Shown: positions 9,697 through 38,428 of the stretch, piece by piece
Layout: the number at the start of each line of letters is the position of its first letter
Numbering within the stretch: position 1 is the first letter of the stretch
Translations under genes and position numbers: made by a program
Virus record (IMG/VR): IMGVR_UViG_3300042884_001120
Coordinates: 64,001 to 128,000 of that record
Strand: one strand, 5' to 3'
Length of the DNA: 64,000 nt
Origin: a virus
The notes under the pieces: model-generated
Database searches by the model: none
The model's input: the letters and a program-made list of their open reading frames with translations, nothing else
Told to the model about the DNA's origin: nothing

Positions 9697-12600
9697 TTAT
9701 AAATTTTTAATACCAAGTAATCTAAATGTAATACCAGTACCAGAAGGCCCAAAGTTCTTACCGCTAATAACGATATCCGCCACATCTATCTGCTCATTAT
9801 CTAAAGTATTTAAAATATTAGAGTAAAAAGATCTAAGCTGAATTACAGAAGAATTATTACCTATCGAGTTAGATTGTATAGAGTTATAGTAATTTAGCCC
9901 ACTTAAAAGATTATTATCCCTATATGAAATAATATTAAAGTTCATTCCAGTTTCTATATCCCAAACACCAGTAAAGGATCTTACTCCGGTAAATTTATTA
10001 ATATATCCTGTTATTGCACCAGAAGCGTATCCAGTATAATAACCTGTTGAAGCAAACGATACAGATGCCATTCCTGAAAAATTACTAGATGGAGACATTT
10101 GTAAATAAGAAGTTTTACCGCCAATTAATGTAGGATTTGGGATATTAATACCTGAGGTATTTGATGTTAAAGTAATAGAATTTCCAGAATCCCCAATAGC
10201 TATTGAAGTTAAAATTATTCCACTAGGCCCAAAAGCTGATCCAGTGCATAGAAAAACTCCCGAATTATTATTGATAATATCAACTAAGGCAGCTCTGGTA
10301 TTAAAAAAATCTGGTGCCAAATAATTTAAAGTATCATCATTATATGATATACTCTTATTATTAATAGATATAAAATCAAAATTATTTAATTTAGTATTAT
10401 CAATATAAACAACTCCAGTAGATTGCTGAAGCCCAGTTATTAATGGGTAATATGGATAATTATTATTATCAATATAATATCCACTTCCAGTAGCCATAAA
10501 TGATTGATTGTAATATCCATCATTGGAAAGGCCTCCTGTAATACCAGTTAGATAAAAATATCCAGTTACTCCAGTTTCACTATAACTCACTCCAGTTAAT
10601 AATCCAGTAAATTGTCCACTGGTTTTACCTGTTACATAAATATTATTATTTGAAAATAAACCACCAAGTGAGGTCGCCTTATCCACAATTGATTTTTTTA
10701 TAATAGTTTCCTCCGTAGAAAAAATACCACTTCCAGTAATATTTTTTGTATAAGTTTTGTCAAAAACCACTTCTTTAGTTCCAGTGTCGTAAAAATAATA
10801 ACCATCAAAAGTATGCGATAATAAGCCAGTTCCAGTAAAATTTCTAGTCAAAAATCCCGTAATATTACCAATATACTTACCGCTTCTATTTAGAAACTTT
10901 ACATTCCCTTCATTTACTGTTGGAATATATTGAATTTCTTCATTATAAGCTCTATAAACACCACTCATAGAGTCTCCACTAATAGTATAGTTATAATCTC
11001 CACTAAAAATAAGTGGTACAATATCACCTATATTAACAGTATAATCAGCACCTATTAAACATGATGACTGTCCAGAATGAGTGGTGATTCCAGTTTTTAA
11101 AGCGGAAAATAAATTTAAATTTTTGAAATAAACTTCATTTTTAGGTATTGAATAACTTTCCCTTCCTGCTGGTATTACGCCACTGAAATTTCTTGCAACT
11201 ATTCTATATCTATCAAAATTCAAATTAGTAATATCATATCCACTATTTGATAACCAGCAATTTAAATATTGTCCAGTTGGATCTAATACCCATCCAGTTC
11301 TAATATAAGATAAATATACATCTTCACTTTTTCCCTTATCTCCAATATTATCTGCCGTTACTCCCGAGCATAAATAACAATTGGTATCTGGAAAACTATA
11401 TTTAATAGCTATCGTAGGAACGTTTCCCTTGGAACACGCTTCCGAATCTTGTACTAAATTTAATTTTAATTTTTCAGACCATTTTGCGCAAGGGTCAACC
11501 AGATCGCTCCCACTGCACCCATTTACTCCAATTGGCCAACCAGTTGGGGTTTCAACTTTTATATCTCTAGATACTTGAATGGGCCCTCCACACTCTGGTT
11601 TAAGGTTTAGTGTTGATAATTGCGTTAAATCTAAAATAGTTTTAAAACCACCACTTATAGGATTTTCCACAAGAGTAATTTCTTCATTAGTAAAGTCTTG
11701 ATCTAATGACGCCATGCCTTGTCCAGAAGACAAGAAGTTATCATTTTGCATGTTTAATTTAATCGTGTCACCCTTTCCTGTAAGAAGTTTATACAATCCA
11801 CTTCTACGATCCAGTACTGCCCACCTACCATCAAGAGATCTCATAGCATTTGTTTGGCCCTGTATTTCTATAACATCTGGAATTAAGTAATCAAAACCAT
11901 TTTTTATGCTTTTTGTATAAGTTTCAGAATACTGTGGACTCCTATCCACTAAACTAAGACTGAAATTAAAACCTGATATATAATTTCTAAGAGATTTAAA
12001 TCTAATGATATTATTGTAATCTTCCTTGCCACTGTATTCTATACCAGTTAGTTTTTCGAATTGCATTAAACTTCCAGTTATATAAATCCCACTTGACTGC
12101 CCAGACAAACATTCATATGGATACCACACTGGGTAAGATCTTCCTAACCTATTATTAAGTGCGGAATTTAAACTGTCAATGCTATTAAAATCGTTTGGAT
12201 AAAATAATGAAAATCCAGTTGTTGGATAAATTGGATTATTATTTAAATGATAAGCTTTATACAAACCAGTATAGTCATAAGTATATAAAGAAAAAGACAA
12301 ACTGTCACCACTAATGAAATTGTTATATTTAATTTCACCAGTTCTAGTTGCAAAAAAATCAGTAATTGAAGAATTCTGTGTTACAGTATTTTGAGAAGCC
12401 GCACCATCGAAACCTTTAAAGAACGGATCACTTTTAAATCCAGATTTAAGTCCAGATATGTATTGATCATATGCAGTACCAGAAAGTGCTCCAGTATAAC
12501 ATATAACAATATCTTCAGGTGTCTCAATATCACCACACTCCGTAGGTTTAATACAGTAACCAGAATACGATGTAAAACTAATGCCAGTTGATTGCGAAAG

Positions 12601-14184
12601 AGATGGTATCTTTAAACTTTTTAAATAATTTAGTTTATTTTGTTCTTCATACCCACTATTAACTACTATATTATCAAAAGTAATTTTTTGAACAAGTTCT
12701 ACGGCATAAGAAAAAACATTCTTAGATAAACCTGACATATTAACACCCGTAGAAACATCATAAGCAGCCCAAATTTTATCATCCGCTGACAGTACTGAAT
12801 AAGTTGGCGGCTTAAAATTTAAATTTTTTACTTTAACACCTTGCCTAACTAGCTGTTGTGGAGAGAAAGTATCTTTAATTTTAAAATTTGTACTATAAAA
12901 ATCTTCATAAAAATAATCTGACACAATAACACCAGCATCTCCAGTAGCGATCCCAGTATAATTAAATTTTGCAAATTCTCCACTATTTTCTAACCAAGAA
13001 TCTCCACTTTTATATAGCCATAAATTTTTATATACCTCTATTGCCGTGTCAGTTGGATAGCTATACCTATCATCGTTTTGATATAATATATTACGACCAG
13101 ATCCATTATTATATATAGTAGATACTTGCAATGGTGAAATTGTTTTATTCCATATAGCAACTTCATCTACTAATCCACTAAATGGATTAAACATAATGTC
13201 TCCACTAACAAAACCGCCAAGACCGAATCCAGTAAATAGTCTATCAAATGTACTTGAATAAGAACCGGCCAAACTACCATTCCAGTACAATTTCATGCCA
13301 ACATTTTGCTGCGATGTTAACACAACATGATTCCATCTATTTGGTAGCCAAGGTTGATATTGTGCAATATTAGCACTCTCCACCCCATCATATACCCAAC
13401 CACCTAATCCAGTATTATCTTTATCAGCTAAAACTAGCGCCTGATTTCTTCCAGTTATTCCAGTTCCAGATATGGTACCAAGCGTCCAAATACAAGAAAG
13501 TTGATCAATGCCGCTCATGTTATAAGCATTAAACCAACAAGAAATAGAGTAATTATTTGGACCAACAACTATTCCAGTAGAGTTAAGGTAGTTAAGTCTG
13601 GAGTCTGAAACAAAAGCTGCGGCAGCGTTATTAATTCCACTTGCAGACCCGACAAAGCCTGATTGTAATAAAGTATTATTTTGCCCATTAATGCTATTGG
13701 GCCTATTTCCGGCAAATTGATTTAGTTTCCAATAAGCAATCAAATCATTAGTTAAAAATCCACTATATATCCCACTTCCACTTCCAATAGTTTGACCAAG
13801 AGAAACTATAGCTCGATTATATTCAGAACCTATAGACCCATTATTAGTAGCTATAATTAAGTTATTTCTTAAAAAATCTCCAGAACCAGAGGTGTAAGTA
13901 GAAATAAATTCAAATTCATCAATAAAATCTAAATTGGTAGTATTAAATACCTCGAAGGCATATTGCCATGTAGGAGTTGGCGTTGGGGTTGGGGTCGGCG
14001 TGGGGGTTGGGGTAGAAGTTGGGGTTGGTGTAGGCTCAGTAACATCCACTAAAATAGCTAAATTATAAGTGTTACCAGCCGAAATACCACTAGCCAATCT
14101 TCCAGTAACTAAATTCGGGACATAGTTCTCCAAAGAGTCGCCAGAACCCCAAGCATATAGATATCCAGTTTGATTAGTTGCCAT
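9697..14184 (-). CDS. Large tail fibre/spike protein: single RCC1 repeat, PT linker, LamG/concanavalin domain, S/T-G-rich body
   Basis: LIAYWKLN...YSISCWFN...WNHVVLT...KLYWNG...FSGLVDEVAIWNKTIS is a LamG_3 pattern; (PT)n linker. Confidence 0.75.
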   Translation of the reverse strand: MATNQTGYLYAWGSGDSLENYVPNLVTGRLASGISAGNTYNLAILVDVTEPTPTPTSTPTPTPTPTPTPTPTWQYAFEVFNTTNLDFIDEFEFISTYTSGSGDFLRNNLIIATNNGSIGSEYNRAIVSLGQTIGSGSGIYSGFLTNDLIAYWKLNQFAGNRPNSINGQNNTLLQSGFVGSASGINNAAAAFVSDSRLNYLNSTGIVVGPNNYSISCWFNAYNMSGIDQLSCIWTLGTISGTGITGRNQALVLADKDNTGLGGWVYDGVESANIAQYQPWLPNRWNHVVLTSQQNVGMKLYWNGSLAGSYSSTFDRLFTGFGLGGFVSGDIMFNPFSGLVDEVAIWNKTISPLQVSTIYNNGSGRNILYQNDDRYSYPTDTAIEVYKNLWLYKSGDSWLENSGEFAKFNYTGIATGDAGVIVSDYFYEDFYSTNFKIKDTFSPQQLVRQGVKVKNLNFKPPTYSVLSADDKIWAAYDVSTGVNMSGLSKNVFSYAVELVQKITFDNIVVNSGYEEQNKLNYLKSLKIPSLSQSTGISFTSYSGYCIKPTECGDIETPEDIVICYTGALSGTAYDQYISGLKSGFKSDPFFKGFDGAASQNTVTQNSSITDFFATRTGEIKYNNFISGDSLSFSLYTYDYTGLYKAYHLNNNPIYPTTGFSLFYPNDFNSIDSLNSALNNRLGRSYPVWYPYECLSGQSSGIYITGSLMQFEKLTGIEYSGKEDYNNIIRFKSLRNYISGFNFSLSLVDRSPQYSETYTKSIKNGFDYLIPDVIEIQGQTNAMRSLDGRWAVLDRRSGLYKLLTGKGDTIKLNMQNDNFLSSGQGMASLDQDFTNEEITLVENPISGGFKTILDLTQLSTLNLKPECGGPIQVSRDIKVETPTGWPIGVNGCSGSDLVDPCAKWSEKLKLNLVQDSEACSKGNVPTIAIKYSFPDTNCYLCSGVTADNIGDKGKSEDVYLSYIRTGWVLDPTGQYLNCWLSNSGYDITNLNFDRYRIVARNFSGVIPAGRESYSIPKNEVYFKNLNLFSALKTGITTHSGQSSCLIGADYTVNIGDIVPLIFSGDYNYTISGDSMSGVYRAYNEEIQYIPTVNEGNVKFLNRSGKYIGNITGFLTRNFTGTGLLSHTFDGYYFYDTGTKEVVFDKTYTKNITGSGIFSTEETIIKKSIVDKATSLGGLFSNNNIYVTGKTSGQFTGLLTGVSYSETGVTGYFYLTGITGGLSNDGYYNQSFMATGSGYYIDNNNYPYYPLITGLQQSTGVVYIDNTKLNNFDFISINNKSISYNDDTLNYLAPDFFNTRAALVDIINNNSGVFLCTGSAFGPSGIILTSIAIGDSGNSITLTSNTSGINIPNPTLIGGKTSYLQMSPSSNFSGMASVSFASTGYYTGYASGAITGYINKFTGVRSFTGVWDIETGMNFNIISYRDNNLLSGLNYYNSIQSNSIGNNSSVIQLRSFYSNILNTLDNEQIDVADIVISGKNFGPSGTGITFRLLGIKNL
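13970..14040 (-). repeat. Pro-Thr tandem repeat (linker)
   Basis: TEPTPTPTSTPTPTPTPTPTPTPT, 6-bp periodicity. Confidence 0.9.
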
Positions 14185-14243: not shown

Positions 14244-15071
14244 TTAATAATCATAGTAATAAATGCCCAAACACGGCGGTATTGGCTTTGGAGGAGAACC
14301 GCTAGATTGTGGCGTACTAGTTAATAATAAGCCATGTGGATAATTTATATCAATATCCCTTACTCCAGTTAAACCTGTTGGGAACGGGTTTGGGAAAAGG
14401 CCTTCCTCACCACCCCATATCTGAATACCTGAACCTGCTCCACTATGAAAAGTAACTGTACAGTAATCATCTGCATAGATATCATAAATATCTGCTAAAA
14501 CTGTTGGAAAACTTAATTGACCATAGCTATCGTCTCCCCATCCAGTAATAGTATTATCATTTAACAATGCCACCGCGTGTGTCCATCCAGCCGAGATTTT
14601 TTTTACGCCAGTTAATGAATCACCTCCATATACTCGATTATAATAATCTATTCCCCATCCAGTTATTTTATTTTGTAATGTAATTGCCAATCCGTAGTAT
14701 GAATTTACTGATATAGATTTTATTCCAGTTAGCTTCGGTACAATTTTTTCAGAATACATTTGCCCACAACCAGTTACAGTACTATTGCTATCTAGAATGT
14801 AAGTAGTGTATTGATCCACCGCTATATCAACAGCTGGATAACTAAAATTTGGAATATTTTTTTGTCCAAAATCTGAATCTCCAGTTCCCCAAGCCAGTAC
14901 TTGTCCATTGTCAGTAAGCGCAATAGCGTGTTCTATTCCAGCGGCCACTTTTTTTACATTGTATAGCCCACTAGCAAAATTAAATTTTTCTATAAATTTA
15001 CCTCCGTTTGGTAAATCCAAAGTCTTATTGCTATTATTTCCCCAACCTATTGCTTGTGTTGTTATAATCAT
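14244..15071 (-). CDS. RCC1-repeat protein (six repeats)
   Basis: Repeats such as VAAGIEHAIALTDNGQVLAWG and ISAGWTHAVALLNDNTITGWGDDSYGQ. Confidence 0.85.
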   Translation of the reverse strand: MIITTQAIGWGNNSNKTLDLPNGGKFIEKFNFASGLYNVKKVAAGIEHAIALTDNGQVLAWGTGDSDFGQKNIPNFSYPAVDIAVDQYTTYILDSNSTVTGCGQMYSEKIVPKLTGIKSISVNSYYGLAITLQNKITGWGIDYYNRVYGGDSLTGVKKISAGWTHAVALLNDNTITGWGDDSYGQLSFPTVLADIYDIYADDYCTVTFHSGAGSGIQIWGGEEGLFPNPFPTGLTGVRDIDINYPHGLLLTSTPQSSGSPPKPIPPCLGIYYYDY

Positions 15072-15074: not shown

Positions 15075-18000
15075 TTATGGACATGGGCACCAATCGCCAC
15101 CACAGTCTAATGGTGCGTTTCGAGTTAAAACTGAGCTACCGATTACTAGCGAGGCGCCAGCTGCGGCCTCTTCGCCTTGTAGTTTTTTATTGCTAGCATA
15201 AACTCTAGTATTAGATGCATCAAAAGCCTGCGCTTCGACACTAGCATAAGTCGGTGTCCATAGCGGCATTGGACTAGGCCAAGATACGGTAATGGTATCT
15301 TCCGGCCCATTTAAGGTGCCGACTAATACTGGAGCACATCCAGCAGCTGCCGAATTTCCCGGTGCGGAGGCATACCCACCAGTTCTATAAACTCTTACAG
15401 GATAAGCAATCTCGTCACAACCTGCCGGTGATGATGGGTATGGAACCAATTCGACATCAACCACGCGCTCATGTGGTCTCCAATAACCGCCATCTCTATC
15501 AAATACACCGTCGGGACAGTTCGAGTCTAATGGTATGTCAAATTTACTAAAAGCAAAATTTCCTCGATGTACTATTAACTGTAAAGTTCCTCTTGAAGAT
15601 GGTTTTATAAAAGACACTGGATATCTATATATAAAACTAAAATTATTATTAGTTCTTGTTATAAGTGACTGCATCCCGCCATTTCTTCTATCATAAACAA
15701 TTCTTCCGCCATTAACTAGGTAAACTCTATAATCCACACTAGGATCACCCCCCATAATCTCTCCATCAATAACCCATGTACTACCACAAACATTAGAGTT
15801 CTCACAACAATATGCTTGAGATAGATTTACTCCATATTCAAACGGTGTACCTCGACCATTTATGGTGGGAAATTCTGGACACTCTCTAGGTGGTGGTGTG
15901 GGTCGTGGCGGATATACGGTTGGTGGAGGATTAAATACGTTGTCACAATCCGGACATTGTGGCGGTTCTGGCGGTTCTGGCGGTTCTGGTGGTTCTGGAG
16001 GCTGTGGCGGCTCTGGAGGCTCTGGAGGCTGTGGTGGTTCTGGGGGTTCTGGCGGTTCTGGTGGCTGAGGCGGAGGGGGCAATATATTTGGATCTATAAG
16101 CTTAAAATCTATAAAAGAACTATTATTGTAAGGATACACCACCTCGTTAACTGGTGTTACAGTTTTTGAGCAATTGCCGGACTCATCATCATATAGTGAA
16201 AAGGTAGCTGTTGTTCTTGCATAATTAACCGAAGGATGTTCAAATATATTACCAAGTTTATAATTTGTATTAACTTGAAGGGATAAGGTTCCATTGCTAG
16301 TTTTTTCGTATTTACTGTTTGGGTAAACTGGTATAGCAAAATACTTAACGCTTTCATTAGGTTTTAGTATATAATCAAATATAAAACCACTAATTCTATT
16401 TTCATCTGAAAGATAGGGCAAATTATTATTTGTATTTTGAAATTGGGCAACCAATGTTCCACTTTGCGTATAATTTGTATATCCAGTTCTATTAACTTGA
16501 AAAGCAATATATTGATCTTTCTCGCATCCAGTATAGTCGCTATGACTCAAATAAATATTAGAAGACATTTGGCTTGGCACTATATTTTTAGATCTTAATT
16601 CTAAAGTATGATAACCAGTAGAAAAATTTTGAGTAACATTTAATCCACCAGTTTGTCCTAATAAATTGTTATTATAATTTATGTAATACCCACCACTCCA
16701 CTGCGTACCAGTTCTCGTTTTTTCATAAAAAACATTTCCAAAACCTGTTTTAACAACTATTTCAGATGGTGCCACTTTATACAATATATTTTTATTATAA
16801 AATACACCCGTAGTACCAGTAAAAAACCCCAAAACCCCACTAACGTTCATACCAGAATAAACGCCGGAAGATATAAAATAACCTGTTTCAAAATTTAAAT
16901 AATTCAATTTATAGAAATTAGCATATAGCATTTCTCCAGTTGTTACTGATTTGAAATTAAATGACAATGGATATTGTATATAACTTTTACCTGTAATTTT
17001 AAAATTAACACTAGTATAATCTTCATCATCAAATAAATTATACTTACCAGATACGTATGTTATGTTTTGATATTGGGAAACTTTCTTATAGCCAGTTTCT
17101 TCCGTTGTTAATAATGGCTGTTTCCAACCTAGAAAATCTATTCCATAGCCTGAAATTTTGCTATTATCTTTTGATATATAACCACCGGTAAAATATGGTT
17201 TTTGATATATATTATCATATACACCACTAGTCCCGCCTATGGTTGTTCTTTTATATTGATAACCACCAATTCCAGTATTTTTTTCATAAACAAATTCACC
17301 GCTATCAACAGGTAAATTATATAATTTAACTATAGGTGTAAAAACTCCAGTTTCATCTTCCAAAGAAATGGAGTTAGGTATTCCAGTTACAGGAATTTCA
17401 AAATCTAAATCTATTTCGTCACATCCAGCAAAACTTTTTCCAGTGGATATTATTTGTGAAATTATACCTGTTGTGAACTTAGTTTCATCAAACTTATCTT
17501 TAATTGGATTAAAATTTTCTATTAAATTAGTATTCCCACTAACCATTCCACTAAATGGCCTTGAAAATACATAATAACCGGGTTCATATATTGAACCGAA
17601 GTCGCCCATAAACTTGCCAGAAAGCCTTTCTCCAGTTGCAAAACCATATCCAATTAGGCGAATTTTATCTGTAAAATTTCCAGTAACAAATATTGTTGGA
17701 CTGGTTAAATTAATAATTTCCAAATCCTTGGAAGCAAAATCACCAGTAATTTTTCCAGTATATGGCACGAATCCATTGAAATTACCACCACTAGATATAA
17801 TTCCATATACAAACTGATTAAATATAACTCCAGAAGCGTTACCAGTAATATTGCCACCAGTAACATTGCCACCTAAATAAGAAATGTATCCACTATAATT
17901 TATATTATTTGAATAGCCAGTTGCTAATAGGTCAGTAGTTCCTTGTATATCACCAATACCAGTAGCCAATGTACTATAAAAACCACTTACAATCTTATCA

Positions 18001-18992
18001 TCCGATATTTTATATAAAGAACCTAATCCGGTTCCAGTTCCAAATTCGTATTGTGAATTTAGCGCGTTTAAACCACTTAATAATCCAGTTATATTTCCAG
18101 ATAAATACCCAGTACCAGAAATAAATCCTGATACTATTCCAGAATTTTGAAATCCAGTAGACTCTACATTTCTATAATAATTTCCAGTTATTCCGCTAAC
18201 GTAATTCAAACCTATACTTAAATCAACACCAGAAGGATTTCTGAAAGATATATTATATAAATTATAGTTATTATTATAAATCGTATCATTTTCTGGCCCA
18301 AACGTAAGATAATATAAATCATCAGTAATTAGTCTACCAGAAATTTGAACGTATAAATCTTTTTTACCAATATCGCTATATATTGATATAGGTATATCTT
18401 GTGTTGCGGTATTGCCAGTTAACGAATTAACAATAAAGAAAGATGCGTTACCGTTAGCTGGAACAACTAAATTTGTTGCACCACTTAATGTAAAATTTCT
18501 ATTATTTGTACTGCCAGAAAATATAGTAAATGGACTAGATCCACTATTATATATAGTAAATGGAACTATCTCTCCAGCATAGAATACCAAGAATGGATTG
18601 TATGAAGTTTGTGGCGTTTTTCCTAAAATTGTTAAATTATTTAAATTAACACATTGTCCACTAACATCTTTAAGAACCACCTTATTCAGATCGCCAGTAG
18701 TATTTCTCTCTAAACCCAAATATAAAGGTATGTTATTTTTATATAAATCTAATGTTTTTGTACCAATATTTCCGGATAACCCCAAAATTTCATTGTTCAG
18801 ATATGAACCAACTACTTCGTTCTTTGGCGAAAGAATCTTACCATTATGAAGAGTAAATATATTACAATTACCACCGATCCCAGAAAAAGATGCCGAAAAT
18901 TTTCCATAAGTGTTTGCAATTTCATATGAAGAACTCCAATTTATACTTTTTTGTGGATAGATTGTCCTATACCTTTCACCTGTAATTACCAT
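15075..18992 (-). CDS. Large tail protein: S/T-G-rich region, Calx-beta-like domain, Pro-rich linker, Cys-rich C-terminus
   Basis: E...FQVNRTG...PNESVKYFAIPV...YE...ATFSLYDDE resembles Calx-beta; position after the baseplate genes. Confidence 0.65.
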   Translation of the reverse strand: MVITGERYRTIYPQKSINWSSSYEIANTYGKFSASFSGIGGNCNIFTLHNGKILSPKNEVVGSYLNNEILGLSGNIGTKTLDLYKNNIPLYLGLERNTTGDLNKVVLKDVSGQCVNLNNLTILGKTPQTSYNPFLVFYAGEIVPFTIYNSGSSPFTIFSGSTNNRNFTLSGATNLVVPANGNASFFIVNSLTGNTATQDIPISIYSDIGKKDLYVQISGRLITDDLYYLTFGPENDTIYNNNYNLYNISFRNPSGVDLSIGLNYVSGITGNYYRNVESTGFQNSGIVSGFISGTGYLSGNITGLLSGLNALNSQYEFGTGTGLGSLYKISDDKIVSGFYSTLATGIGDIQGTTDLLATGYSNNINYSGYISYLGGNVTGGNITGNASGVIFNQFVYGIISSGGNFNGFVPYTGKITGDFASKDLEIINLTSPTIFVTGNFTDKIRLIGYGFATGERLSGKFMGDFGSIYEPGYYVFSRPFSGMVSGNTNLIENFNPIKDKFDETKFTTGIISQIISTGKSFAGCDEIDLDFEIPVTGIPNSISLEDETGVFTPIVKLYNLPVDSGEFVYEKNTGIGGYQYKRTTIGGTSGVYDNIYQKPYFTGGYISKDNSKISGYGIDFLGWKQPLLTTEETGYKKVSQYQNITYVSGKYNLFDDEDYTSVNFKITGKSYIQYPLSFNFKSVTTGEMLYANFYKLNYLNFETGYFISSGVYSGMNVSGVLGFFTGTTGVFYNKNILYKVAPSEIVVKTGFGNVFYEKTRTGTQWSGGYYINYNNNLLGQTGGLNVTQNFSTGYHTLELRSKNIVPSQMSSNIYLSHSDYTGCEKDQYIAFQVNRTGYTNYTQSGTLVAQFQNTNNNLPYLSDENRISGFIFDYILKPNESVKYFAIPVYPNSKYEKTSNGTLSLQVNTNYKLGNIFEHPSVNYARTTATFSLYDDESGNCSKTVTPVNEVVYPYNNSSFIDFKLIDPNILPPPPQPPEPPEPPEPPQPPEPPEPPQPPEPPEPPEPPEPPQCPDCDNVFNPPPTVYPPRPTPPPRECPEFPTINGRGTPFEYGVNLSQAYCCENSNVCGSTWVIDGEIMGGDPSVDYRVYLVNGGRIVYDRRNGGMQSLITRTNNNFSFIYRYPVSFIKPSSRGTLQLIVHRGNFAFSKFDIPLDSNCPDGVFDRDGGYWRPHERVVDVELVPYPSSPAGCDEIAYPVRVYRTGGYASAPGNSAAAGCAPVLVGTLNGPEDTITVSWPSPMPLWTPTYASVEAQAFDASNTRVYASNKKLQGEEAAAGASLVIGSSVLTRNAPLDCGGDWCPCP
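15958..16080 (-). repeat. (PPE/PPQ)n 9-bp tandem repeat
   Basis: Units such as GGCGGTTCT/GGAGGCTGT encoding PPQPPEPPEPPEPPQ. Confidence 0.9.
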
Positions 18993-25340: not shown

Positions 25341-25374
25341 AAGTACCAATACTTATTTACACTTTTTTGAACAC

Positions 25375-26916: not shown

Positions 26917-29900
26917 TTAAGTGATGTTAAGACCAAGAACGTTGAAAAGAGGTTTTGGTTTTTTGGGCGGCGGATTTAAACTTGGATCCTTAGTTACGGT
27001 TGCGGCTGCTATTGCCTCTACTTTGGCTAATCTTCCCTGTATAACATCAATAATTTCCTGATCAACACCTTGAAGCTCTTGTTGAATTTGTTGCCCCTGA
27101 GCTTGTGATGCGGCATTTATTGCGATTGTAATTGGAGAATTAAAACTAAGAGATGATTCGCCCGCTTGTGCTTGAGTCATATTTCTTTGAGTTTCTTCTT
27201 TTTGTCTTTGTATAACATCCATTTCCCCCTGAGTACTTAGCATCATACCCTGATATGGATTTGCTAGAGGGGAACCCGGTAAGGTCTGAGCCCTTTGTGA
27301 TTCAAGTGCGGCATCTGGCATTGTGAACCTTTCTCTATACATTTGGTTAGGTGCTGATTCTAGTAAATTACGCCCACCCATTAAAGCCGCACTATTCATG
27401 CCAACAGCTGGATTAAATATTGTTGACAAGTCTCCCCCTTTTTGTACTTCTTGTGCCGCCATGCCCGGAAGCTGCGCACCTTGTCCAGCTAACCCTCCCA
27501 AAATACTTACCATATTAGAAAGATAGCCATTTGACATTCCTATCTGCGTTGTAAAAACATCTCCTAGACTTCTTATTCCGTCTGGAATTTTATTGACCTC
27601 TTCTGTAGCCGCGCCGTATGTTGCCGATAAAGCAGCGCCTTCCGGACCTAGTTTGCTTATTATATCAGATTGCTTGCCCCTAAGTTGTTCAACTCGCGCG
27701 CTTTGTATATTAGCATCAGTTGGCTTAAATGCTATACCAGCCTTAACCTTTGCCGCCTCCATCAAGCCCTGTTCTGAAGTAAGCGCACCAGTGGTTTGCC
27801 TAACGGTTCTTGCAGCCATTGCTGGATCCAAACCAACTTTCGCTAAATTAGCCTCAATTGACGCCTGTTGTTTTTGACCAATTTTAGCCATAGATTCTAC
27901 CGCCATTTGATACATTGGATTGCTTGTGTCTATAGTGCCTCCTGTGGCTTGATAGGCTTTTATCCAATCGCTAGCGGCCTGTCCCCTTTGTTCGTCCGTA
28001 GCTGTCGTGTCTTTTTGTACGGCAATAAAATTATCTGTGGCCTCTGTAAATTTATCTGACACTGAATTGTCTCCCATTCCGCCATCGTTAAACATCTGAT
28101 CCATCGTTCCACCCAATTTATCCATTTCCTGAATAGTTACTTTAATTAACTCGTCCAGACGCTGAACAGTTTTGGTAGCAGCATCTTTTTGCGCAGCGAA
28201 TAGTAATTTATTATTACTATTGAATGTTTCTCTAAGTTTATTAAGCTGCTCCTCATCTTTAACCCCATTTTCTTTTAATGCAGAAATCATTCCCTCAGTA
28301 TCATATTGCTCTAATGGGCCCAAGGGCCCTTGTATTGTATTAGTTTTAACTGACCCAATTTTAGCAGATATATCTTGAATTTTTTTTGAAAAATCTTGAT
28401 TGCCAGTCACTCCAGATAAGTCACCTAACTGACCTCTTATATCATTATACTGACTAAAATCTTTAACTCCAGTGGCTGTTGGTATTGCTTTTTCGAACGC
28501 TGTATTCAAAGACTGTTTAATGGCCTCATCTATGTCTGCCGCAGATTTAGTTTGCTGTGCGCCAATAGTATCTTGATATATATTTTTTGTTTTAAGGTTT
28601 GATGCAGCTTTTTCAAACCCAAGTGCCTCTAAAATATCAACCTGTCCAGTTGATTTTGTTCTTTTAAAATCCGAAGCAAATTCTGCACCTGAAGTTGCAA
28701 TGCTTGTTCTCGTTGCAATATCCATACTTGATATTACTTTTTTCAACTTGTTTTCAAAATCTTGCAAGGCTTTTACGGCCGCCTGATTACGATCCACAAA
28801 ACCCTTGGCCGTATTCCTAGCCCCATCTAGTCTTATTCTTTTTTCTTCTGAAATTGCCTTGGCTAAATCTTGTGCAAAACTCTGCCAAGAATTTCCAAAC
28901 TGTTGTTCTAATTTTCCAGCTTGCTCCTCAGTAAGTCCTAGCGCACCTCTCAATTTACTTAAATCAATAGTTGCAGATGATAATTCATCACCCATTGCCT
29001 TAAGTTCAGCGTCAGTCTTTCCGCTAATAGCTTGCTTTGATATTTGCGCACCAAATTGTTCTTTATTAATTTTTCCGCCAATAGCGGCTTCAGCAATAGA
29101 AGTTGACTGAACTGCCGCTCCTTGTTTTGCTAGTCTATCACTTAAAGTTTTTAATACATCAGTTAGATTTTTTTGAGTTTTTGCGAAATCAAGACCACCA
29201 GCACTTATAGCCTTTTGTGCTTCTGGACTTGCATTACTTGCGATAGCTCTAATTTCTTTTTCTAACGCTACGGCCTCTCTAGAACCAGCATTACCACCTT
29301 GTCTTAATTCTTGCAGTTGTTCTAATTTTGGAAGTACAGCTTGAGTAACTTCGGCAAGCCTTGATTGCTCTTCCGATGTTTTTTTGGTGGATGCCTGCAA
29401 TTCTGGAAGGTTTGTCCTCGACTCATTTAACGCTTTAGTCCAAGCAGTTAATCCGCCGACAGCCAAACCAAGCGCCCCACCAATAGCGGTTCCGACAGGC
29501 CCTAAGGCGCTACCAACTAAAGCCCCAGTACCAGCGGCAGATAGGGCGGTTCCAATGCCAGTAACTGCGGCAGATTTAACTCTACCTTCTTTATTTGTGG
29601 TATCTATAGATGAGGCAACGGTTTCAGCTATAATCGGTGCAAAAGCCAACGCTGTTCCAGCAGCGCCAGCACCAGCCTGTAGCCTTGATGCGTTACGGGC
29701 GCCACGACTCAGTGTTTCGGCACCACCAGCTTGAATTGTTTTTAGTTTTGCGCGCCTGTCTTTAATTTCTTGGGCAAGCTGATTTCTTTCCTGCGTCTGT
29801 GTTGCGCTTAATTGTTTTGCCGCCTCACGCCTCTGGGAAATTTCTTCGGTAGTAACCTGTATTAAAGCCGCTTTTCTTGTGGCAATTTCTTCTTGATACG

Positions 29901-32706
29901 AGCGCTTGACATTTGGAATTTGAAAAGCTAGTAGTGTTGCAAAACTTGTAAGTTGCGCGCCAACAGCTGTAACAGTTGAACTAATACTAGTACCATCTCC
30001 CTCTGCAAAATTTGGTATATATCCCTTTGCATAACCACGATTTGACATCGCGCGTTTATCGGCTGAGGTAGAGCCCTCGTCTCGCTTGTTAAACACGCCA
30101 ACACCCATTGGATTACTAGAATTTACTAGCTCTGGATATTGTCTGGTATATATGCCGCTCTTCGGTACTCCAGCGCCAATTTCGCGTGATATTGATTCGT
30201 TTAAGGCATTTGCAAAGTTAGGAATATAGCCACTTGCAAATCCGGGCTTTCTTCTTGCTGGCTTACCGGGTGCTTTTCTTTTCGTTCGCTGTTCGGCACT
30301 GCTTCCAAGTATGGCATCTCTACCACCCCTTTCTTTAATAACTTTATCAGCAAAACTTAAAAGATTACCAGAAGATGCGGATACTTTAAAATCAGCAAGA
30401 TTTCCAGCATAACCAAATAATTGTTTTAATTTATCAGCGTTTTGTCCACCCCTTACGTCAAAATCTCCCATATTTGCTGTAGATTTTGCCGCTATATAAT
30501 CTAACGATTTAGATATAGCAACTTCAAACGCAGACCCAACAAAACCCTGTAAAGCGCCATAAGCACCCCTAGACCCACCATCTTTTTCACTTAAAAAACT
30601 CTGACTCAGAACTGATTCATCAACACCCTGACCAAGTGGTTGTAAAGTTTTTATATAATCAGCAACTGTCTGTAATCCTTGTTTTTTTATCAACTCATTT
30701 AAATTACCAGCTGGTTTTACTGCGCCCTTTTTATATCCACGGACTGGTATATCCGTTACTAATATATCTCTATTATTTTTTCCAACTGAACTTGCGTTCG
30801 GAAATGTTCCATATTCTGGAACTAACACGCTTGCATTAGAGTTTATACTAGTTTTTGCATTAGATTCTGCAAAATTAGGAATATATCCACGACCATACAT
30901 TGGAATAACAGCAGAATCACCATTTTTACCAAATCTTGGTATTTCCACTTCTTCACTATTCTTAATAAATTTCTTACCACCAATAGTTCCTCTACTTAAT
31001 TGCGCCCTTGGGTTTTTAGCACCTAATGCTTTAGCTTGCGCTTCTTCCATTGCGTACTGATCAGCAAAATTTGGAATATAACCAGCGGCTTTCGTAGTTA
31101 CTGGGACTTGACTGCCCTTTGGAACTCTAACACCAGCGCCAAATAAATTTTTTGATATTTGGGAAGTTAATGCGGCCTGTTGCTGCATTTGTGTAGTTTG
31201 TTGCTGAAGAACTGTTAATAAAACCTGAGAAGCCTGATTGACACTCATTGCCCCACTCGCCATTTGTTGATACAGCTGTGGATTTTTTGCTAATATTGCA
31301 GAAATACTAGCTTGAATACCTTGCTGTTGAGATGCCGTTGCGTTTAAACCTAGCAACTCCTTCACACTTCCTGCTGAAAATTTTGCGAAGTCTCCAAAAA
31401 GTTTTAACAAAACACCACCAACAAGTGCCAAACCGGGACCAGCGATAATATCTCCTAGCCCCTTTAAGATGCCATTTCCAATTTTGCCGCCAACACTTTC
31501 GCTATCTACATTATTTAAAGACTCTAATAAACTATTTCCTCCACCAACTAAATTTTCTAGCGCTGGGCCAAAAAGAGACTCTCCAGATTTTGCGGCAAAC
31601 TGGGTTGCATTTTGCTTTAGGGCGTTAACTTGCGCAGCTAAAGTTTTGTTTAATTGATCATTTCTTGTAATCGCCTCGTTTGTCGCAGTAGAAGATATTT
31701 GAACTGCGTTATTATAAACAGAATACTCTTTACCCAAATCAGATAGGGCAGCTTTTAAAATGTTAATCTGGAAAACACCACCGACAGCTTCAGCAACCGA
31801 AGCCTGTTGTTGAGAGCCAAGAGTATCATAAACCTTTCCAAGATCTTTTAATAAATCAATAGTTGATCTTAGTTGTCCACTAGCATCCGTAGTTTCGATA
31901 CCGAGACTACCAAGTAAGTCAACAACCTTACCACGCTGAAGCCTTGTAAAAATTGTCTTAAACGAGTTACCAATAACTGCACCACCACGGGCAGTTGTCT
32001 GCTGTGCAGAGGTAACCAAACCAATAAGTTCATCTAACTGAACACCAGATTGAGAAGCACTGCTACCAACACGACTAATTGCTTCTGCCAAGTCAGCGGA
32101 ACTAACCGCGAACGCCGCATCAACTGTTGCAAACTTATTAACTATTTGCGTTGCAGTTACAGACTGAGAGGCGAAACTGTTAACAGCTGCCGTTAATGCC
32201 TCAACGCTCTTTACTGTATCTAAACCGCTTAATCTTGCTAAAATCAGGGCCTCGCTTGTACGTTTTAGCGTCTCCTCTACACCAAGGCCCTGACGTGAAA
32301 ATTCTGTAGCGGCCTTTGCGACTTCCGCAAACGACTGGCCGGTATTTTTTGCAACATTAAAAAGAGAATCGCCAAATTTAGCTATTTGTTTATCAGATAC
32401 ATTTAAAATTACATTAATATCTGCAAGAGATTTCTCTACTTCAATCGTAGATGTTATTAATGATTCGAAAGCCTTATTTAAACCATATAAAATAGTTGCA
32501 CTAGCACCGAAAGCAACAACACGCGCGTTTGCCGCATCCAAGGATTTATTAAATTCAGAAAGCTGTCCAGTAATTCTACCTAATGGCTGGTTGCCCTTAG
32601 TGCTTAAATTTAAATTAAGATTATACTGTTGATTAACTAGTTTTTGTATCGCAGCATATGCTGGAGATACATTAGCATTAATATTAACTGTTGCTTGTGC
32701 GGGCAT
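26917..32706 (-). CDS. Tail tape measure protein (TP901-type core) with internal GYIPNFA-delimited cassette
   Basis: 1929 aa, Ala/Gln-rich helical; AATEFSRQG...TARGGAVIGNSFKTIFTRL TMP core; hydrophobic segments; follows chaperones and tail tube. Confidence 0.92.
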   Translation of the reverse strand: MPAQATVNINANVSPAYAAIQKLVNQQYNLNLNLSTKGNQPLGRITGQLSEFNKSLDAANARVVAFGASATILYGLNKAFESLITSTIEVEKSLADINVILNVSDKQIAKFGDSLFNVAKNTGQSFAEVAKAATEFSRQGLGVEETLKRTSEALILARLSGLDTVKSVEALTAAVNSFASQSVTATQIVNKFATVDAAFAVSSADLAEAISRVGSSASQSGVQLDELIGLVTSAQQTTARGGAVIGNSFKTIFTRLQRGKVVDLLGSLGIETTDASGQLRSTIDLLKDLGKVYDTLGSQQQASVAEAVGGVFQINILKAALSDLGKEYSVYNNAVQISSTATNEAITRNDQLNKTLAAQVNALKQNATQFAAKSGESLFGPALENLVGGGNSLLESLNNVDSESVGGKIGNGILKGLGDIIAGPGLALVGGVLLKLFGDFAKFSAGSVKELLGLNATASQQQGIQASISAILAKNPQLYQQMASGAMSVNQASQVLLTVLQQQTTQMQQQAALTSQISKNLFGAGVRVPKGSQVPVTTKAAGYIPNFADQYAMEEAQAKALGAKNPRAQLSRGTIGGKKFIKNSEEVEIPRFGKNGDSAVIPMYGRGYIPNFAESNAKTSINSNASVLVPEYGTFPNASSVGKNNRDILVTDIPVRGYKKGAVKPAGNLNELIKKQGLQTVADYIKTLQPLGQGVDESVLSQSFLSEKDGGSRGAYGALQGFVGSAFEVAISKSLDYIAAKSTANMGDFDVRGGQNADKLKQLFGYAGNLADFKVSASSGNLLSFADKVIKERGGRDAILGSSAEQRTKRKAPGKPARRKPGFASGYIPNFANALNESISREIGAGVPKSGIYTRQYPELVNSSNPMGVGVFNKRDEGSTSADKRAMSNRGYAKGYIPNFAEGDGTSISSTVTAVGAQLTSFATLLAFQIPNVKRSYQEEIATRKAALIQVTTEEISQRREAAKQLSATQTQERNQLAQEIKDRRAKLKTIQAGGAETLSRGARNASRLQAGAGAAGTALAFAPIIAETVASSIDTTNKEGRVKSAAVTGIGTALSAAGTGALVGSALGPVGTAIGGALGLAVGGLTAWTKALNESRTNLPELQASTKKTSEEQSRLAEVTQAVLPKLEQLQELRQGGNAGSREAVALEKEIRAIASNASPEAQKAISAGGLDFAKTQKNLTDVLKTLSDRLAKQGAAVQSTSIAEAAIGGKINKEQFGAQISKQAISGKTDAELKAMGDELSSATIDLSKLRGALGLTEEQAGKLEQQFGNSWQSFAQDLAKAISEEKRIRLDGARNTAKGFVDRNQAAVKALQDFENKLKKVISSMDIATRTSIATSGAEFASDFKRTKSTGQVDILEALGFEKAASNLKTKNIYQDTIGAQQTKSAADIDEAIKQSLNTAFEKAIPTATGVKDFSQYNDIRGQLGDLSGVTGNQDFSKKIQDISAKIGSVKTNTIQGPLGPLEQYDTEGMISALKENGVKDEEQLNKLRETFNSNNKLLFAAQKDAATKTVQRLDELIKVTIQEMDKLGGTMDQMFNDGGMGDNSVSDKFTEATDNFIAVQKDTTATDEQRGQAASDWIKAYQATGGTIDTSNPMYQMAVESMAKIGQKQQASIEANLAKVGLDPAMAARTVRQTTGALTSEQGLMEAAKVKAGIAFKPTDANIQSARVEQLRGKQSDIISKLGPEGAALSATYGAATEEVNKIPDGIRSLGDVFTTQIGMSNGYLSNMVSILGGLAGQGAQLPGMAAQEVQKGGDLSTIFNPAVGMNSAALMGGRNLLESAPNQMYRERFTMPDAALESQRAQTLPGSPLANPYQGMMLSTQGEMDVIQRQKEETQRNMTQAQAGESSLSFNSPITIAINAASQAQGQQIQQELQGVDQEIIDVIQGRLAKVEAIAAATVTKDPSLNPPPKKPKPLFNVLGLNIT

Positions 32707-34532: not shown

Positions 34533-34540
34533 ATAATATA

Positions 34541-34765: not shown

Positions 34766-34811
34766 CCTTTTACCTTTGTTACCTTATTATACCAAATATA
34801 ATTACACCTAT

Positions 34812-34847: not shown

Positions 34848-34870
34848 AATTATAGTTTAATTTTTATTAA

Positions 34871-35962: not shown

Positions 35963-36020
35963 AAAGTTTTAAAAGGTTACTATTAATTACATTCATCTAC
36001 CTAAAATAGACACTATAGAA

Positions 36021-37887: not shown

Positions 37888-37888
37888 A

Positions 37889-38428
37889 CTAATATAATTC
37901 CCTATAATAATTTCTATTATATTCTACAATAACATAATTATTTAAAGCCACTGTATCGTCCCCAACCACCTGATTTGGAGTAGCTTCATACTTTAGATAC
38001 ATTTTTACAGATTTATCTAAATTCTGCTTGGTGTCGGACGCAATACCCCTGAGAGTTTTACTGACTTCATTTTTATTTACGCGACTTATTCTACTATCTC
38101 CCTCCGCAAGCGATGTCCAGTCTCCAGCCGCTGTGCTAGCGCTAATTGCCGTGTCTCTAGCCAGTTGTGAATAATAATTATATTCAAATACTAAAGAATA
38201 AATTGCTAACTCATTATTGCCCGGCTGTGGGGTTATTGCATATCCAGTTACCCCAGTTACTCCAGTTATATATTCTGAAATATAATTTGTCCCAATTAGG
38301 TTATTTAGTTTACCTAAATTTGAATTATCCAACACCCATCCACTTACTCTACTTAAAGAATAAGCGGTAGGTTCCCCAATCTGCCCATAAATACTATTTA
38401 CAAAGTTGTCTAAATAATTATTGCTCAC
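37889..38428 (-). CDS. Putative head-tail adaptor
   Basis: Helical with SLAEGDSRISR hairpin motif; synteny. Confidence 0.55.
   Translation of the reverse strand: MSNNYLDNFVNSIYGQIGEPTAYSLSRVSGWVLDNSNLGKLNNLIGTNYISEYITGVTGVTGYAITPQPGNNELAIYSLVFEYNYYSQLARDTAISASTAAGDWTSLAEGDSRISRVNKNEVSKTLRGIASDTKQNLDKSVKMYLKYEATPNQVVGDDTVALNNYVIVEYNRNYYRELY

What the first reader, a model, noticed from the sequence alone, without database searches (positions are those of the whole stretch)
9697..38428. Extreme S/T-G dipeptide enrichment confined to tail-surface proteins: candidate phage glycosylation sequon
Seen (manual counts, approximate): about 95 SG/TG in the 1495-aa protein, about 65 in the first ~940 aa of the 1305-aa protein, and about 40 in the 714-aa protein. 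Clusters also occur in tail tube (VTGSATGQHTG), adaptor (YITGVTGVTGY) and terminator. By contrast there are only about 20 in the 1929-aa internal TMP and about 2 in TerL. The motif is aperiodic, lies in unrelated folds and is not a DNA repeat. Known: some mycobacteriophages glycosylate virion proteins with their own GTs. Inference: convergent accumulation of an O-glycosylation sequon for the phage's GT4/GT9 enzymes, giving a dense glycan coat on the tail.
Basis: partly seen in the sequence, partly recalled or inferred. Interest (0 to 1): 0.85.

Follow-up and report, generated by a model that had tools for sequence, protein, structure and literature searches.

The report
Ser/Thr-Gly-rich phage tail proteins
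The outer tail proteins of this uncultured 154-kb lake phage and its relatives carry about three times too many Ser-Gly and Thr-Gly pairs at the corners of beta-strands, beside a conserved set of phage sugar-transferase genes; this fits sugar-attachment sites, but attachment is not shown.

Summary
The 1495-, 1305- and 714-aa tail proteins carry 96, 68 and 42 [ST]G pairs against 30, 24 and 13 expected (z 14, 11, 9), and 56% of their glycines follow Ser or Thr. The signal is strictly in frame, one-directional (G[ST] is not enriched), aperiodic and not caused by repeats. It is absent from the TMP, hub, capsid and 167 other ORFs, and from T4, lambda, T5 and phiCD211 fibres. It is also absent from 149 composition-matched LamG proteins.

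- **Placement:** sites are conserved with S/T swaps and sit at strand/loop junctions of a confident LamG model, often where the family has N/D-Gly.
- **Distribution:** nine of eleven related genomes show the signature, in non-homologous distal tail proteins.
- **GT link:** all eleven carry a tail-adjacent GT4/split-GT9 module. No GT gene tracks the motif. GT60, GT17 and GT2 are missing from motif-positive relatives, and one complete genome has the core module with almost no enrichment.

My best reading is O-glycosylation acceptor sites (about 0.4). A lineage-specific structural idiom is the main rival (about 0.3). The scan has noted this signature before, on this genome and on at least eight others.

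The parts
9697..14184 (-). 1495-aa distal tail protein. It has an N-terminal PT linker and a LamG/ConA-like domain. [ST]G runs at 4-11 per 100 aa along its whole length.
   Evidence: 96 observed against 29.7 expected, z 14. Even density. Laminin_G_3 E 2e-13. The orthologue P0012 has O/E 3.04.
13060..13797 (-). LamG domain of the 1495-aa protein (residues 130-375), used as a known-fold test case. It has 15 [ST]G sites.
   Evidence: O/E 2.82, the highest of 213 homologous LamG domains (median 1.2). Most sites lie in loop insertions or where the family has N/D-Gly. AF2 model has pLDDT 79 and pTM 0.82. Eleven of 12 sites in the confident part lie within 2 residues of a strand or helix end.
14244..15071 (-). 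275-aa RCC1-repeat protein, mildly enriched.
   Evidence: RCC1_2 E 1.2e-25. 12 observed against 5.3 expected, z 3.3.
16173..18992 (-). First 940 residues of the 1305-aa tail protein, enriched.
   Evidence: 67 of the protein's 68 sites lie here. Whole protein z 11.
15075..16172 (-). Last 365 residues of the 1305-aa protein, behind a PPEPPE linker. This part is Cys-rich, has higher G+C, and has only 1 [ST]G.
   Evidence: G+C is 0.40 in this stretch against about 0.32 nearby.
21604..23748 (-). 714-aa tail protein lying between the 533-aa and 862-aa baseplate-type proteins. Its N-terminal domain is a ConA-like jelly roll. Enriched.
   Evidence: 42 observed against 13.1 expected, z 9. Ten homologues are all enriched (z 7.6-11), with position-conserved sites and S/T swaps. 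The fold match is to lectin-like jelly rolls. The model as a whole is poor (pLDDT 56).
19011..21599 (-). 862-aa hub-like protein, an internal control. Not enriched.
   Evidence: 5 observed against 7.3 expected. It is conserved in G2, G3 and G9.
23748..26913 (-). 533-aa and 512-aa baseplate-type proteins. Not enriched; the 512-aa protein is depleted.
   Evidence: 6 against 6.1 and 1 against 5.8.
26917..32706 (-). Tape measure protein (1929 aa). Not enriched.
   Evidence: PhageMin_Tail E 9.5e-28. 20 observed against 27.4 expected.
960..2132 (-). 390-aa GT4-like protein of the core GT module.
   Evidence: Weak Glycos_transf_1 match, E 0.0046. Orthologues in all the genomes compared, at E 1e-81 to 1e-183.
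3998..5929 (+). 643-aa protein made of GT4-type, DUF4214 and the N-terminal part of a GT9.
   Evidence: Weak Pfam matches. Residues 532-591 match positions 1-56 of LPS heptosyltransferases. Atlas clusters are viral Glycos_transf_1/DUF4214. It is 36-75% identical in at least 133 viral contigs.
5955..7133 (+). 392-aa protein made of the C-terminal (nucleotide-sugar) domain of GT9 plus about 210 further residues. It has its own ribosome-binding site.
   Evidence: Glyco_transf_9 E 2.4e-14, profile positions 105-238. Nearest solved structures are 3TOV and WaaF. NCBIfam names it heptosyltransferase II/III. GGAGG lies 8 nt before the TTG start.
7171..7992 (+). 273-aa conserved protein of unknown family that closes the GT module.
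   Evidence: No family match. Orthologues in all the genomes compared.
54616..58277 (-). Two Thr/Gly-rich beta-helix-like proteins (643 and 476 aa), only moderately enriched.
   Evidence: O/E 1.7-1.8, z 3.5-4. PATR E 2.9e-9 and a weak bactofilin match.

Best explanation
The [ST]-Gly pairs are acceptor sites for O-glycosylation of the distal tail proteins by phage-encoded enzymes.

**Shown**
- A unit made of a hydroxyl residue followed by Gly has been added on top of an otherwise normal composition.
- It sits at beta-strand ends and starts and in surface loops of fast-evolving peripheral tail proteins.
- It is kept by purifying selection with free Ser/Thr exchange.
- The same is seen in non-homologous tail proteins across a wide, uncultured aquatic phage lineage.
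- Every member of that lineage that I compared carries a GT module converging on the tail genes. The module is a GT4-like protein, a GT4+DUF4214+GT9-N fusion, a GT9-C protein and a 273-aa protein, together with gmd.

**Inferred**
- In the cytoplasm, a GT of this module (most plausibly the split GT9 pair) puts a first sugar on the exposed hydroxyl at strand-loop-strand corners. Gly leaves room for the enzyme.
- Accessory GTs and methyltransferases, which vary between clades, extend the glycan.
- The result is a dense glycan cover (4-11 sites per 100 residues) on the peripheral tail, but not on the capsid, tube, TMP or hub.
For: 1. **Size and specificity.** z is 9-14, against at most 3.4 in fibres of T4, lambda, T5 and phiCD211. 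In 149 LamG-bearing proteins of the same S+T and N+D content, O/E is at most 1.79.
2. **Hydroxyl-specific and directional.** [ST]G:[ND]G is 6.7 against 1.2 and 0.98 in controls. VG, IG, YG, PG and EG are depleted, and G[ST] is 0.8-1.0. Neither turn nor strand propensity predicts this.
3. **A unit added to normal composition.** Removing the pairs brings Gly to 4-6% and S+T to 13-15%.
4. **Constraint.** S/T before G keeps its class in 73% of homologue cells, against 42% for other S/T. G after S/T is kept in 81%, against 53% for other G.
5. **Known fold.** The phage LamG copy is the top outlier of 213 domains. The extra sites are in loop insertions and at N/D-Gly turn positions. In the model they lie at strand/loop junctions.
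6. **Lineage.** Nine of 11 related genomes have strongly enriched distal tail proteins that are not homologous to those here. All carry the GT module next to the tail genes.
7. **Sugar supply.** gmd, FkbM methyltransferase, GT17, GT2 and a strong GT60 polypeptide-GlcNAc-transferase match (E 3.6e-67) show a rich sugar repertoire.
8. **DNA as the target is less likely.** No ThyA-type hydroxymethylase was found; the Tet/JBP search was uninformative because its controls did not ring.
Against: - No GT gene tracks the motif. GT60, GT17, GT2 and FkbM occur only in G0/G2/G3, and GT60 is absent from the complete, strongly enriched G003.
- The core module is present and syntenic in the complete genome G011. 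Its 1739-, 1486- and 2439-aa tail-region proteins are not enriched. Only two proteins of about 400 aa show z 3-3.6.
- The phage GT9 matches LPS heptosyltransferases, and TibC was not among the PDB sequence hits.
- Published work on BAHT and ETEC sites reports a structural motif and Asn/Thr neighbours, not Gly at +1 (PMC5000012).
- Asn is the commonest replacement of S/T where Gly is kept (17 cells, mostly two sites), as expected for a plain turn.
- Non-target ORFs show no avoidance of [ST]G (O/E 1.1).
- There is no mass-spectrometric or other direct evidence, and no cultured relative.
Confidence: 0.4

Rival explanations
1. This is a lineage-specific structural idiom with no modification. [ST]-Gly would be this lineage's preferred way to end or start short beta-strands: an ST-turn cap plus a left-handed Gly. 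It would be used in rapidly diversifying beta-sandwich and fibre modules, and inherited and spread through a shared pool of exchangeable tail modules. On this reading the GT module serves something else, such as changing the host envelope.
For: - Sites lie at strand ends and starts and at hairpin corners.
- Positions are conserved among homologues, and Asn-Gly substitutes at some of them.
- At least two enriched proteins share a ConA/LamG-like jelly-roll fold class.
- G011 has the GT module without the signature, and no GT tracks it.
- The GT9 looks like an LPS heptosyltransferase.
Against: - The same fold elsewhere does not need it. 212 other LamG domains have median O/E 1.2, and 149 composition-matched proteins reach at most 1.79.
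- Turn statistics favour N/D-Gly and strand ends favour V/I/Y, yet these are depleted.
- Other beta-rich virion proteins of the same phage (hub, 512 aa, 533 aa, tube, capsid) lack it.
- It recurs in proteins with no detectable homology, so some lineage-wide pressure is still needed.
Confidence: 0.3
2. This is an adaptation for chemical stability. Selection would remove Asn-Gly and Asp-Gly, the sequences most prone to deamidation and isoaspartate formation, from long-lived exposed tail loops, and replace them with Ser/Thr-Gly.
For: - At two conserved LamG turn positions the family has N/D-Gly and the phage has S-Gly.
- Two sites are NG in distant homologues of the 714-aa protein and SG in the close clade.
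- The [ST]G:[ND]G ratio is shifted 5- to 7-fold.
Against: - The deficit of [ND]G (43 observed against roughly 70 expected) is far smaller than the excess of [ST]G (about 190) in the enriched set.
- NG and DG are no more depleted than the average of the other XG pairs.
- The most conserved LamG Asn-Gly is kept.
- The capsid and tube, which are equally exposed, are not affected.
- Model phages show nothing similar.
Confidence: 0.07
3. The sites take another enzyme-directed modification or interaction at the hydroxyl (phosphorylation, acylation, a cross-link), or they are recognition sites for an assembly chaperone rather than for a glycosyltransferase.
For: The same hydroxyl-specific, directional and conserved pattern applies. 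No GT phyletic pattern explains the motif.
Against: No kinase, acyltransferase or cross-linking enzyme was seen among the genes scanned near the tail module. GTs are the only modifying enzymes conserved next to the tail genes.
Confidence: 0.08

Closest known systems
Virion glycosylation of mycobacteriophages (Che8 and relatives; Freeman et al. 2023, cited in PMC11256854)
   Same: Phage-encoded glycosyltransferases attach glycans covalently to structural proteins of the virion.
   Different: In those phages the glycosylation is shown by experiment, the hosts are actinobacteria, and the capsid (and, from my own recollection, the tail tube) is the target. No [ST]-Gly rule is known there. Here the candidates are the peripheral tail proteins only, the phage lineage is uncultured, and nothing has been shown.
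Bacterial autotransporter heptosyltransferases (TibC/AAH) that hyperglycosylate AIDA-I and TibA (PMC4358343; PMC5000012)
   Same: These are cytoplasmic GT9-type enzymes that put many sugars on Ser/Thr of a beta-rich surface protein. Recognition is thought to be of a short structural arrangement rather than a linear sequon, which resembles the strand-loop-strand placement seen here.
   Different: The phage GT9 is split over two ORFs and fused to a GT4/DUF4214 protein. By sequence it matches LPS heptosyltransferases and not TibC. Reported ETEC site motifs have Asn/Thr near the site, not Gly at +1.
Eukaryotic O-glycosylation rules with a small residue after the acceptor: Ser-Gly for proteoglycan xylosylation and (T/S)-G within the EOGT site of EGF repeats (my own knowledge, not tested here)
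   Same: A hydroxyl residue followed directly by Gly serves as the acceptor context.
   Different: The enzyme families are unrelated (GT14, GT61), the setting is the secretory pathway, and further flanking requirements apply.
Ordinary hairpin corners: Asx/ST-turns followed by a left-handed Gly (G1 bulge)
   Same: The placement is the same: a polar capping residue at a strand end followed by Gly.
   Different: In ordinary proteins Asn and Asp are at least as common as Ser and Thr at this place. [ST]G:[ND]G is about 1 in the controls, against 6.7 here.

Membership tests
Phage-encoded virion O-glycosylation system | The phage itself encodes glycosyltransferases and sugar-nucleotide enzymes. | tested here: met
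   GT9 E 2.4e-14, GT60 (PF11397) E 3.6e-67, GT17 E 2.9e-28, GT2, FkbM, gmd E 1e-110.
Phage-encoded virion O-glycosylation system | Glycan is covalently bound to virion proteins. | not testable with these tools
   This needs mass spectrometry or glycan staining of virions or recombinant proteins. There is no cultured relative.
Phage-encoded virion O-glycosylation system | The presence of the transferase goes with the presence of the acceptor signature across relatives. | tested here: inconclusive
   The core module is in all 11 genomes: 9 strongly positive, 1 weak and incomplete, and 1 complete genome (G011) almost negative. The accessory GTs do not track the motif.
Bacterial autotransporter heptosyltransferase (BAHT: TibC/AAH) | GT9-type GT-B fold. 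| tested here: met
   The N-terminal part of GT9 lies at residues 532-591 of the 643-aa protein, and the C-terminal domain lies in the 392-aa protein.
Bacterial autotransporter heptosyltransferase (BAHT: TibC/AAH) | Closer to TibC/AAH than to LPS heptosyltransferases. | tested here: not met
   The PDB sequence search finds 3TOV, WaaF and WaaC, and not TibC, at E up to 1. NCBIfam's best matches are LPS heptosyltransferase II/III and RfaQ.
Bacterial autotransporter heptosyltransferase (BAHT: TibC/AAH) | Iron-binding dodecameric ring. | not tested
GT60 polypeptide GlcNAc-transferase as the enzyme that sets the motif | Present wherever the motif is present. | tested here: not met
   PF11397 was found only in G000 and G002. 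It is absent from the complete G003, G013 and other motif-positive genomes.
Low-complexity or tandem-repeat protein | The excess is explained by repeated units at the DNA or peptide level. | tested here: not met
   TRF finds only the two Pro-rich linkers and two arrays of at most 56 nt. Spacing is aperiodic. There are no self or cross BLASTP matches, apart from one shared 100-aa domain.
DNA-level motif (restriction, methylation, Chi-like) | The motif is enriched regardless of reading frame. | tested here: not met
   [CG]TGG[AT] occurs 72, 49 and 31 times in the coding register, against 0-8 in the other two frames.

The most novel reading that the evidence does not exclude
A widespread, wholly uncultured lineage of large aquatic siphophages hyper-glycosylates its peripheral tail proteins at a simple two-residue acceptor. 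The acceptor is Ser/Thr-Gly at beta-hairpin corners, with 40-100 sites per chain. The enzymes would be a tail-adjacent complex built from a GT4 fusion and a GT9 split over two polypeptides. This would be the first sequon-like rule for protein glycosylation in phages.
Probability: 0.35. Interest if true: 0.85.

Novelty: new variant of a known kind. Interest (0 to 1): 0.6.

Why it matters
If the pairs are sugar-attachment sites, three things follow:
- They would give a sequence-readable marker of virion glycosylation in metagenomes.
- They would extend phage protein glycosylation from actinobacteriophages to a large aquatic lineage.
- They would point to a new acceptor rule and an unusual split GT9 enzyme.

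A glycan cover on receptor-binding tail proteins would bear on host recognition, virion stability and decay in water.

If instead the pairs are purely structural, the result is still useful in two ways. It is a striking, lineage-specific rule of loop design that current turn statistics do not predict. It is also a warning against reading glycosylation from sequence bias plus neighbouring GT genes.

Tried and rejected
- **Composition or chance.** Rejected by shuffles and by natural-protein controls.
- **DNA-level motif.** Rejected, because the motif is frame-specific.
- **Repeats.** Rejected.
- **Motif-specific codon pair (NNT-GGA).** The T-ending bias before Gly codons is genome-wide and also holds for V, A, L and G. 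My first idea, avoidance of Shine-Dalgarno-like AGGA, was not borne out. A modest GGA preference after S/T remains unexplained.
- **Avoidance of [ST]G in non-target proteins.** Not seen (O/E 1.03-1.12).
- **Signature in core virion proteins compared between motif-positive genomes and G011.** Uninformative (O/E 0.9-1.5 everywhere). The one exception is the 284-aa protein at 36021-36875, which is about 2-fold enriched in positive genomes and 0.8 in G011, on small numbers.
- **Phyletic profile of all G0 genes against the motif.** Only replication genes and one 90-aa ORF separate the motif-positive genomes from G011, and no GT does.
- **AF2 model of the whole 714-aa protein.** Too poor (pLDDT 56) to map sites outside the N-terminal jelly roll.
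- **Homology searches.** PHROGs and the GenBank phage collection gave no useful relatives of the tail proteins or of the 643-aa GT.
- **Literature.** Searches found no paper describing an [ST]G rule in phages. Freeman et al. 2023 is not held.
- **DNA glycosylation as the role of the GTs.** No ThyA-type hydroxymethylase was found. The Tet/JBP search was uninformative because its controls did not ring.
Full report
**Setting**

The window is bases 64001-128000 of a single 154,360-bp phage record with direct terminal repeats. G+C is 36%, and about 31-33% in the tail genes. All the large structural genes lie on the minus strand.
- TerL is 46031-47932. Its nearest GenBank relatives are large siphophages of Firmicutes at only 22-25% identity.
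- There is a weak capsid match at 38931-40040.
- The TMP is 26917-32706.
- Downstream of the TMP come proteins of 512, 533, 714, 862, 1305, 275 and 1495 aa.

**The observation**

| Protein | Observed [ST]G | Expected | z (500 shuffles) |
|---|---|---|---|
| 1495 aa | 96 | 29.7 | 14 |
| 1305 aa | 68 | 23.5 | 11 |
| 714 aa | 42 | 13.1 | 9 |
| TMP | 20 | 27 | not enriched |
| 862 aa | 5 | 7.3 | not enriched |
| 533 aa | 6 | 6.1 | not enriched |
| 512 aa | 1 | 5.8 | depleted |
| TerL | 2 | 4.1 | not enriched |

- Of the 366 glycines in the three enriched proteins, 206 follow S or T.
- TG (O/E 3.45) and SG (2.84) are the two most over-represented dipeptides, and every other XG is depleted. EG is 0.08, PG 0.12, YG 0.27, VG 0.39, DG 0.50 and NG 0.59. 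The reverse pairs GS and GT are at 0.77.
- Flanking positions lean to I, F, V, A and L before the pair and to I, Y, V and F after it. Spacing is aperiodic.
- Density is even, at 4-11 per 100 residues. The exception is the last 365 residues of the 1305-aa protein, which hold one site.
- Taking the pairs out brings Gly to 4.4-6.1% and S+T to 13-15%, the normal values for this phage. The pair therefore behaves as a unit added to an ordinary composition.

**What it is not**

- *A DNA motif.* [CG]TGG[AT] occurs 72, 49 and 31 times in the coding register of the three genes, against 0-8 in the other two frames.
- *A repeat.* Tandem repeats cover only the PT and PPEPPE linkers and two arrays of at most 56 nt.
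- *Shared ancestry of the enriched proteins.* They do not match each other by BLASTP. The one exception is a 100-aa domain shared by the 714-aa protein and a 116-aa ORF.
- *A motif-specific codon pair.* The strong preference for T-ending S/T codons before Gly is a genome-wide codon-pair bias. It is seen equally for V, A, L and G, and in non-enriched genes.

**Natural-protein controls**

- Fibres and tail proteins of T4 (gp34, gp37), lambda (J, Stf), T5 (pb1-pb5) and phiCD211 (including a 1759-aa RCC1 fibre) have O/E 0.7-1.9, z at most 3.4, and 10-31% of Gly after S/T.
- A search with the LamG domain of the 1495-aa protein against 1.84 billion representatives returned 150 large LamG-bearing proteins. 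Apart from the orthologue (O/E 3.04), their median O/E is 1.16 and the maximum is 1.79.
- These controls have the same S+T (18.7%) and N+D (13.8%) content as the enriched set. Even so, their [ST]G:[ND]G ratio is 0.98, against 6.7 in the enriched proteins. It is 1.2-1.3 in the phage's other ORFs and other virion proteins.
- The 167 non-enriched ORFs of the genome have O/E 1.11, so there is no avoidance.

**Where the sites sit**

- Among 213 homologous LamG domains, the phage copy has the highest O/E (2.82 against a median of 1.2).
- Of its 15 sites, only two lie where [ST]G is common in the family.
- Two lie at conserved Gly columns where the family has mostly N or D.
- Most of the rest lie in columns that are gaps in most other members, that is, in loop insertions.
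- The AF2 model of this domain is good (pLDDT 79, pTM 0.82). Eleven of the 12 sites in its confident part fall within two residues of a strand or helix end. Either S/T is the last strand residue with Gly opening the turn, or the pair directly precedes a strand.
- The whole 714-aa model is poor (pLDDT 56), but it shows the same tendency. Its N-terminal 240 residues match lectin-like jelly rolls: CBM40, and the jelly-roll subdomain of clostridial receptor-binding domains. This is a fold-class match only.

**Conservation**

Ten homologues of the 714-aa protein, at 33-91% identity, are all enriched (z 7.6-11). The sites are largely fixed in position, with frequent S/T exchange. In the eight homologues at 67% identity or less:
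- S/T before Gly keeps its class in 73% of cells, against 42% for other S/T.
- Gly after S/T is kept in 81%, against 53% for other Gly.
- Where S/T is lost but Gly is kept, Asn is the commonest replacement (17 cells, mostly two sites).

**The glycosyltransferases**

Next to the end of the tail block, and converging on it, lie four genes:
- a weak GT4-like gene (960-2132);
- a 643-aa protein (3998-5929) with a GT4-type N-terminal part, DUF4214, and the first roughly 110 residues of a GT9;
- a 392-aa protein (5955-7133) that begins with the C-terminal domain of GT9 and has its own GGAGG ribosome-binding site;
- a 273-aa protein of unknown family (7171-7992).

These rest. Elsewhere the genome encodes gmd, an FkbM methyltransferase, GT17, GT2 and a GT60-type polypeptide GlcNAc-transferase. 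The GT60 gene (E 3.6e-67) lies beside three enriched ORFs. No ThyA-type hydroxymethylase was found, which weakens DNA glycosylation as the purpose of the GTs. The Tet/JBP search rang nowhere, not even in the controls, so it says nothing.

**Relatives and the co-variation test**

The 643-aa protein has relatives at 36-75% identity in at least 133 IMG/VR contigs, and none in GenBank phages. It is far better conserved (66-75%) than the tail proteins (33-46%) in the same contigs. I read eleven genomes in full or nearly so.

| Result | Genomes | Detail |
|---|---|---|
| Strongly enriched | G000, G002, G003, G008, G009, G010, G012, G013, G015 | ORF z 6.5-15, in or near the tail block |
| Weak | G014 (67% complete) | z 4.5 |
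| Almost negative | G011 (complete, 137.7 kb) | 1739, 1486 and 2439 aa have 17/16.9, 12/11.3 and 31/35.6 observed/expected; only two proteins of about 400 aa reach z 3-3.6 |

- The enriched proteins of G008-G010 have no detectable homology to those of G000. They do occupy the same places, between and after the conserved 533-like and hub-like proteins, which are never enriched.
- The core GT module and gmd belong to the core genome of all the genomes compared, G011 included, where the module is syntenic with the tail genes.
- The accessory GTs (GT60, GT17, FkbM and two GT9-like ORFs) occur only in G000, G002 and G003; GT2 matched none of the six relatives compared. GT60 is absent from the complete G003 and from G013.
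- No GT gene of this phage therefore has a distribution that follows the signature.

**Weighing**

Four features are not predicted by beta-turn or strand propensities:
- the hydroxyl specificity;
- the direction of the pair;
- the unit-like addition to a normal composition;
- the excess over the same fold elsewhere.

A purely protein-intrinsic explanation also has to account for the restriction to peripheral tail proteins of one lineage, across non-homologous sequences. This points to a lineage-wide factor acting on exposed hydroxyls. The only conserved candidates next to the tail genes are glycosyltransferases, one of them of the GT9 type. That family includes the enzymes that hyperglycosylate beta-rich autotransporters (PMC4358343). 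I therefore rank O-glycosylation acceptor sites first.

My confidence is only about 0.4, for these reasons:
- The comparative test gives no positive support.
- G011 is a near counter-example.
- The GT9 resembles LPS enzymes.
- Published autotransporter site motifs do not have Gly at +1.
- The placement at hairpin corners, with occasional Asn substitution, is what a structural role would also give.
- Replacement of deamidation-prone N/D-Gly explains only a small part of the excess.

**Earlier notes of the scan**

The same signature was noted on this genome (e1-5881228) and on at least eight other genomes. One of them appears to be my G009, going by ORF coordinates. Earlier follow-ups reached both readings.

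Noticed in passing
window 3998-7133 (+): A GT9 glycosyltransferase is split at its interdomain boundary. Its N-terminal part is fused to the end of a 643-aa GT4/DUF4214 protein. Its C-terminal domain opens the next ORF, which has its own GGAGG ribosome-binding site and a TTG start. The two-ORF arrangement is the same in G002 and G003 and, by orthologues and synteny, in G011.
   Followed up: partly
window 15075-16172 (-): The last 365 residues of the 1305-aa tail protein lie behind a PPEPPE linker. They are Cys-rich, sit in a stretch of 40% G+C (neighbours about 32%), and hold a single [ST]G. This looks like a recently acquired tip domain.
   Followed up: no
genome 32538-32888 (L002:12538-12888, +) and window 21604-23748: A 116-aa ORF beside the GT60 gene is a free-standing copy (29% identity, E 1.6e-10) of residues 469-568 of the 714-aa tail protein. 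That segment is an insertion missing from most homologues.
   Followed up: partly
whole genome: There is a genome-wide codon-pair bias. Before a Gly codon, T-ending synonymous codons are preferred over A-ending ones (T/(T+A) 0.68-0.82 against 0.44-0.56) for V, A, T, S, L and G. It is not explained by avoidance of AGGA.
   Followed up: partly
L006:130-220 (-), genome about 148130-148220: ARAGORN calls a tRNA-Ser with anticodon ACT (A at position 34), which would read AGU. It is one of 18 phage tRNAs. No tRNA-Gly is encoded.
   Followed up: no
window 54616-58277 (-): Two Thr/Gly-rich proteins (12-13% each) have a PATR autotransporter-type repeat and a weak bactofilin-like match. They lie where G+C rises to 38-43%, are probably beta-helical, and are only moderately [ST]G-enriched.
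   Followed up: no
window 21604-23748 (-), residues 1-240: The N-terminal domain of the 714-aa protein has a ConA-like lectin jelly-roll fold. The best structural matches are CBM40 and the jelly-roll subdomain of clostridial receptor-binding domains. This is a fold-class similarity only, which suggests a glycan-binding tail module.
   Followed up: partly
window 47929-48867 (-) and 2353-2937 (-), 49988-50680 (-): An ERCC4-type nuclease with an N-terminal C2H2 zinc finger lies beside TerL. There are also two sigma-70/ECF-like factors, one of them inside the GT module.
   Followed up: no
window 36021-36875 (-): The 284-aa core tail protein is about 2-fold [ST]G-enriched in all motif-positive genomes (58 observed against 29 expected when summed) but not in G011 (2 against 2.4). 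The numbers are small.
   Followed up: partly
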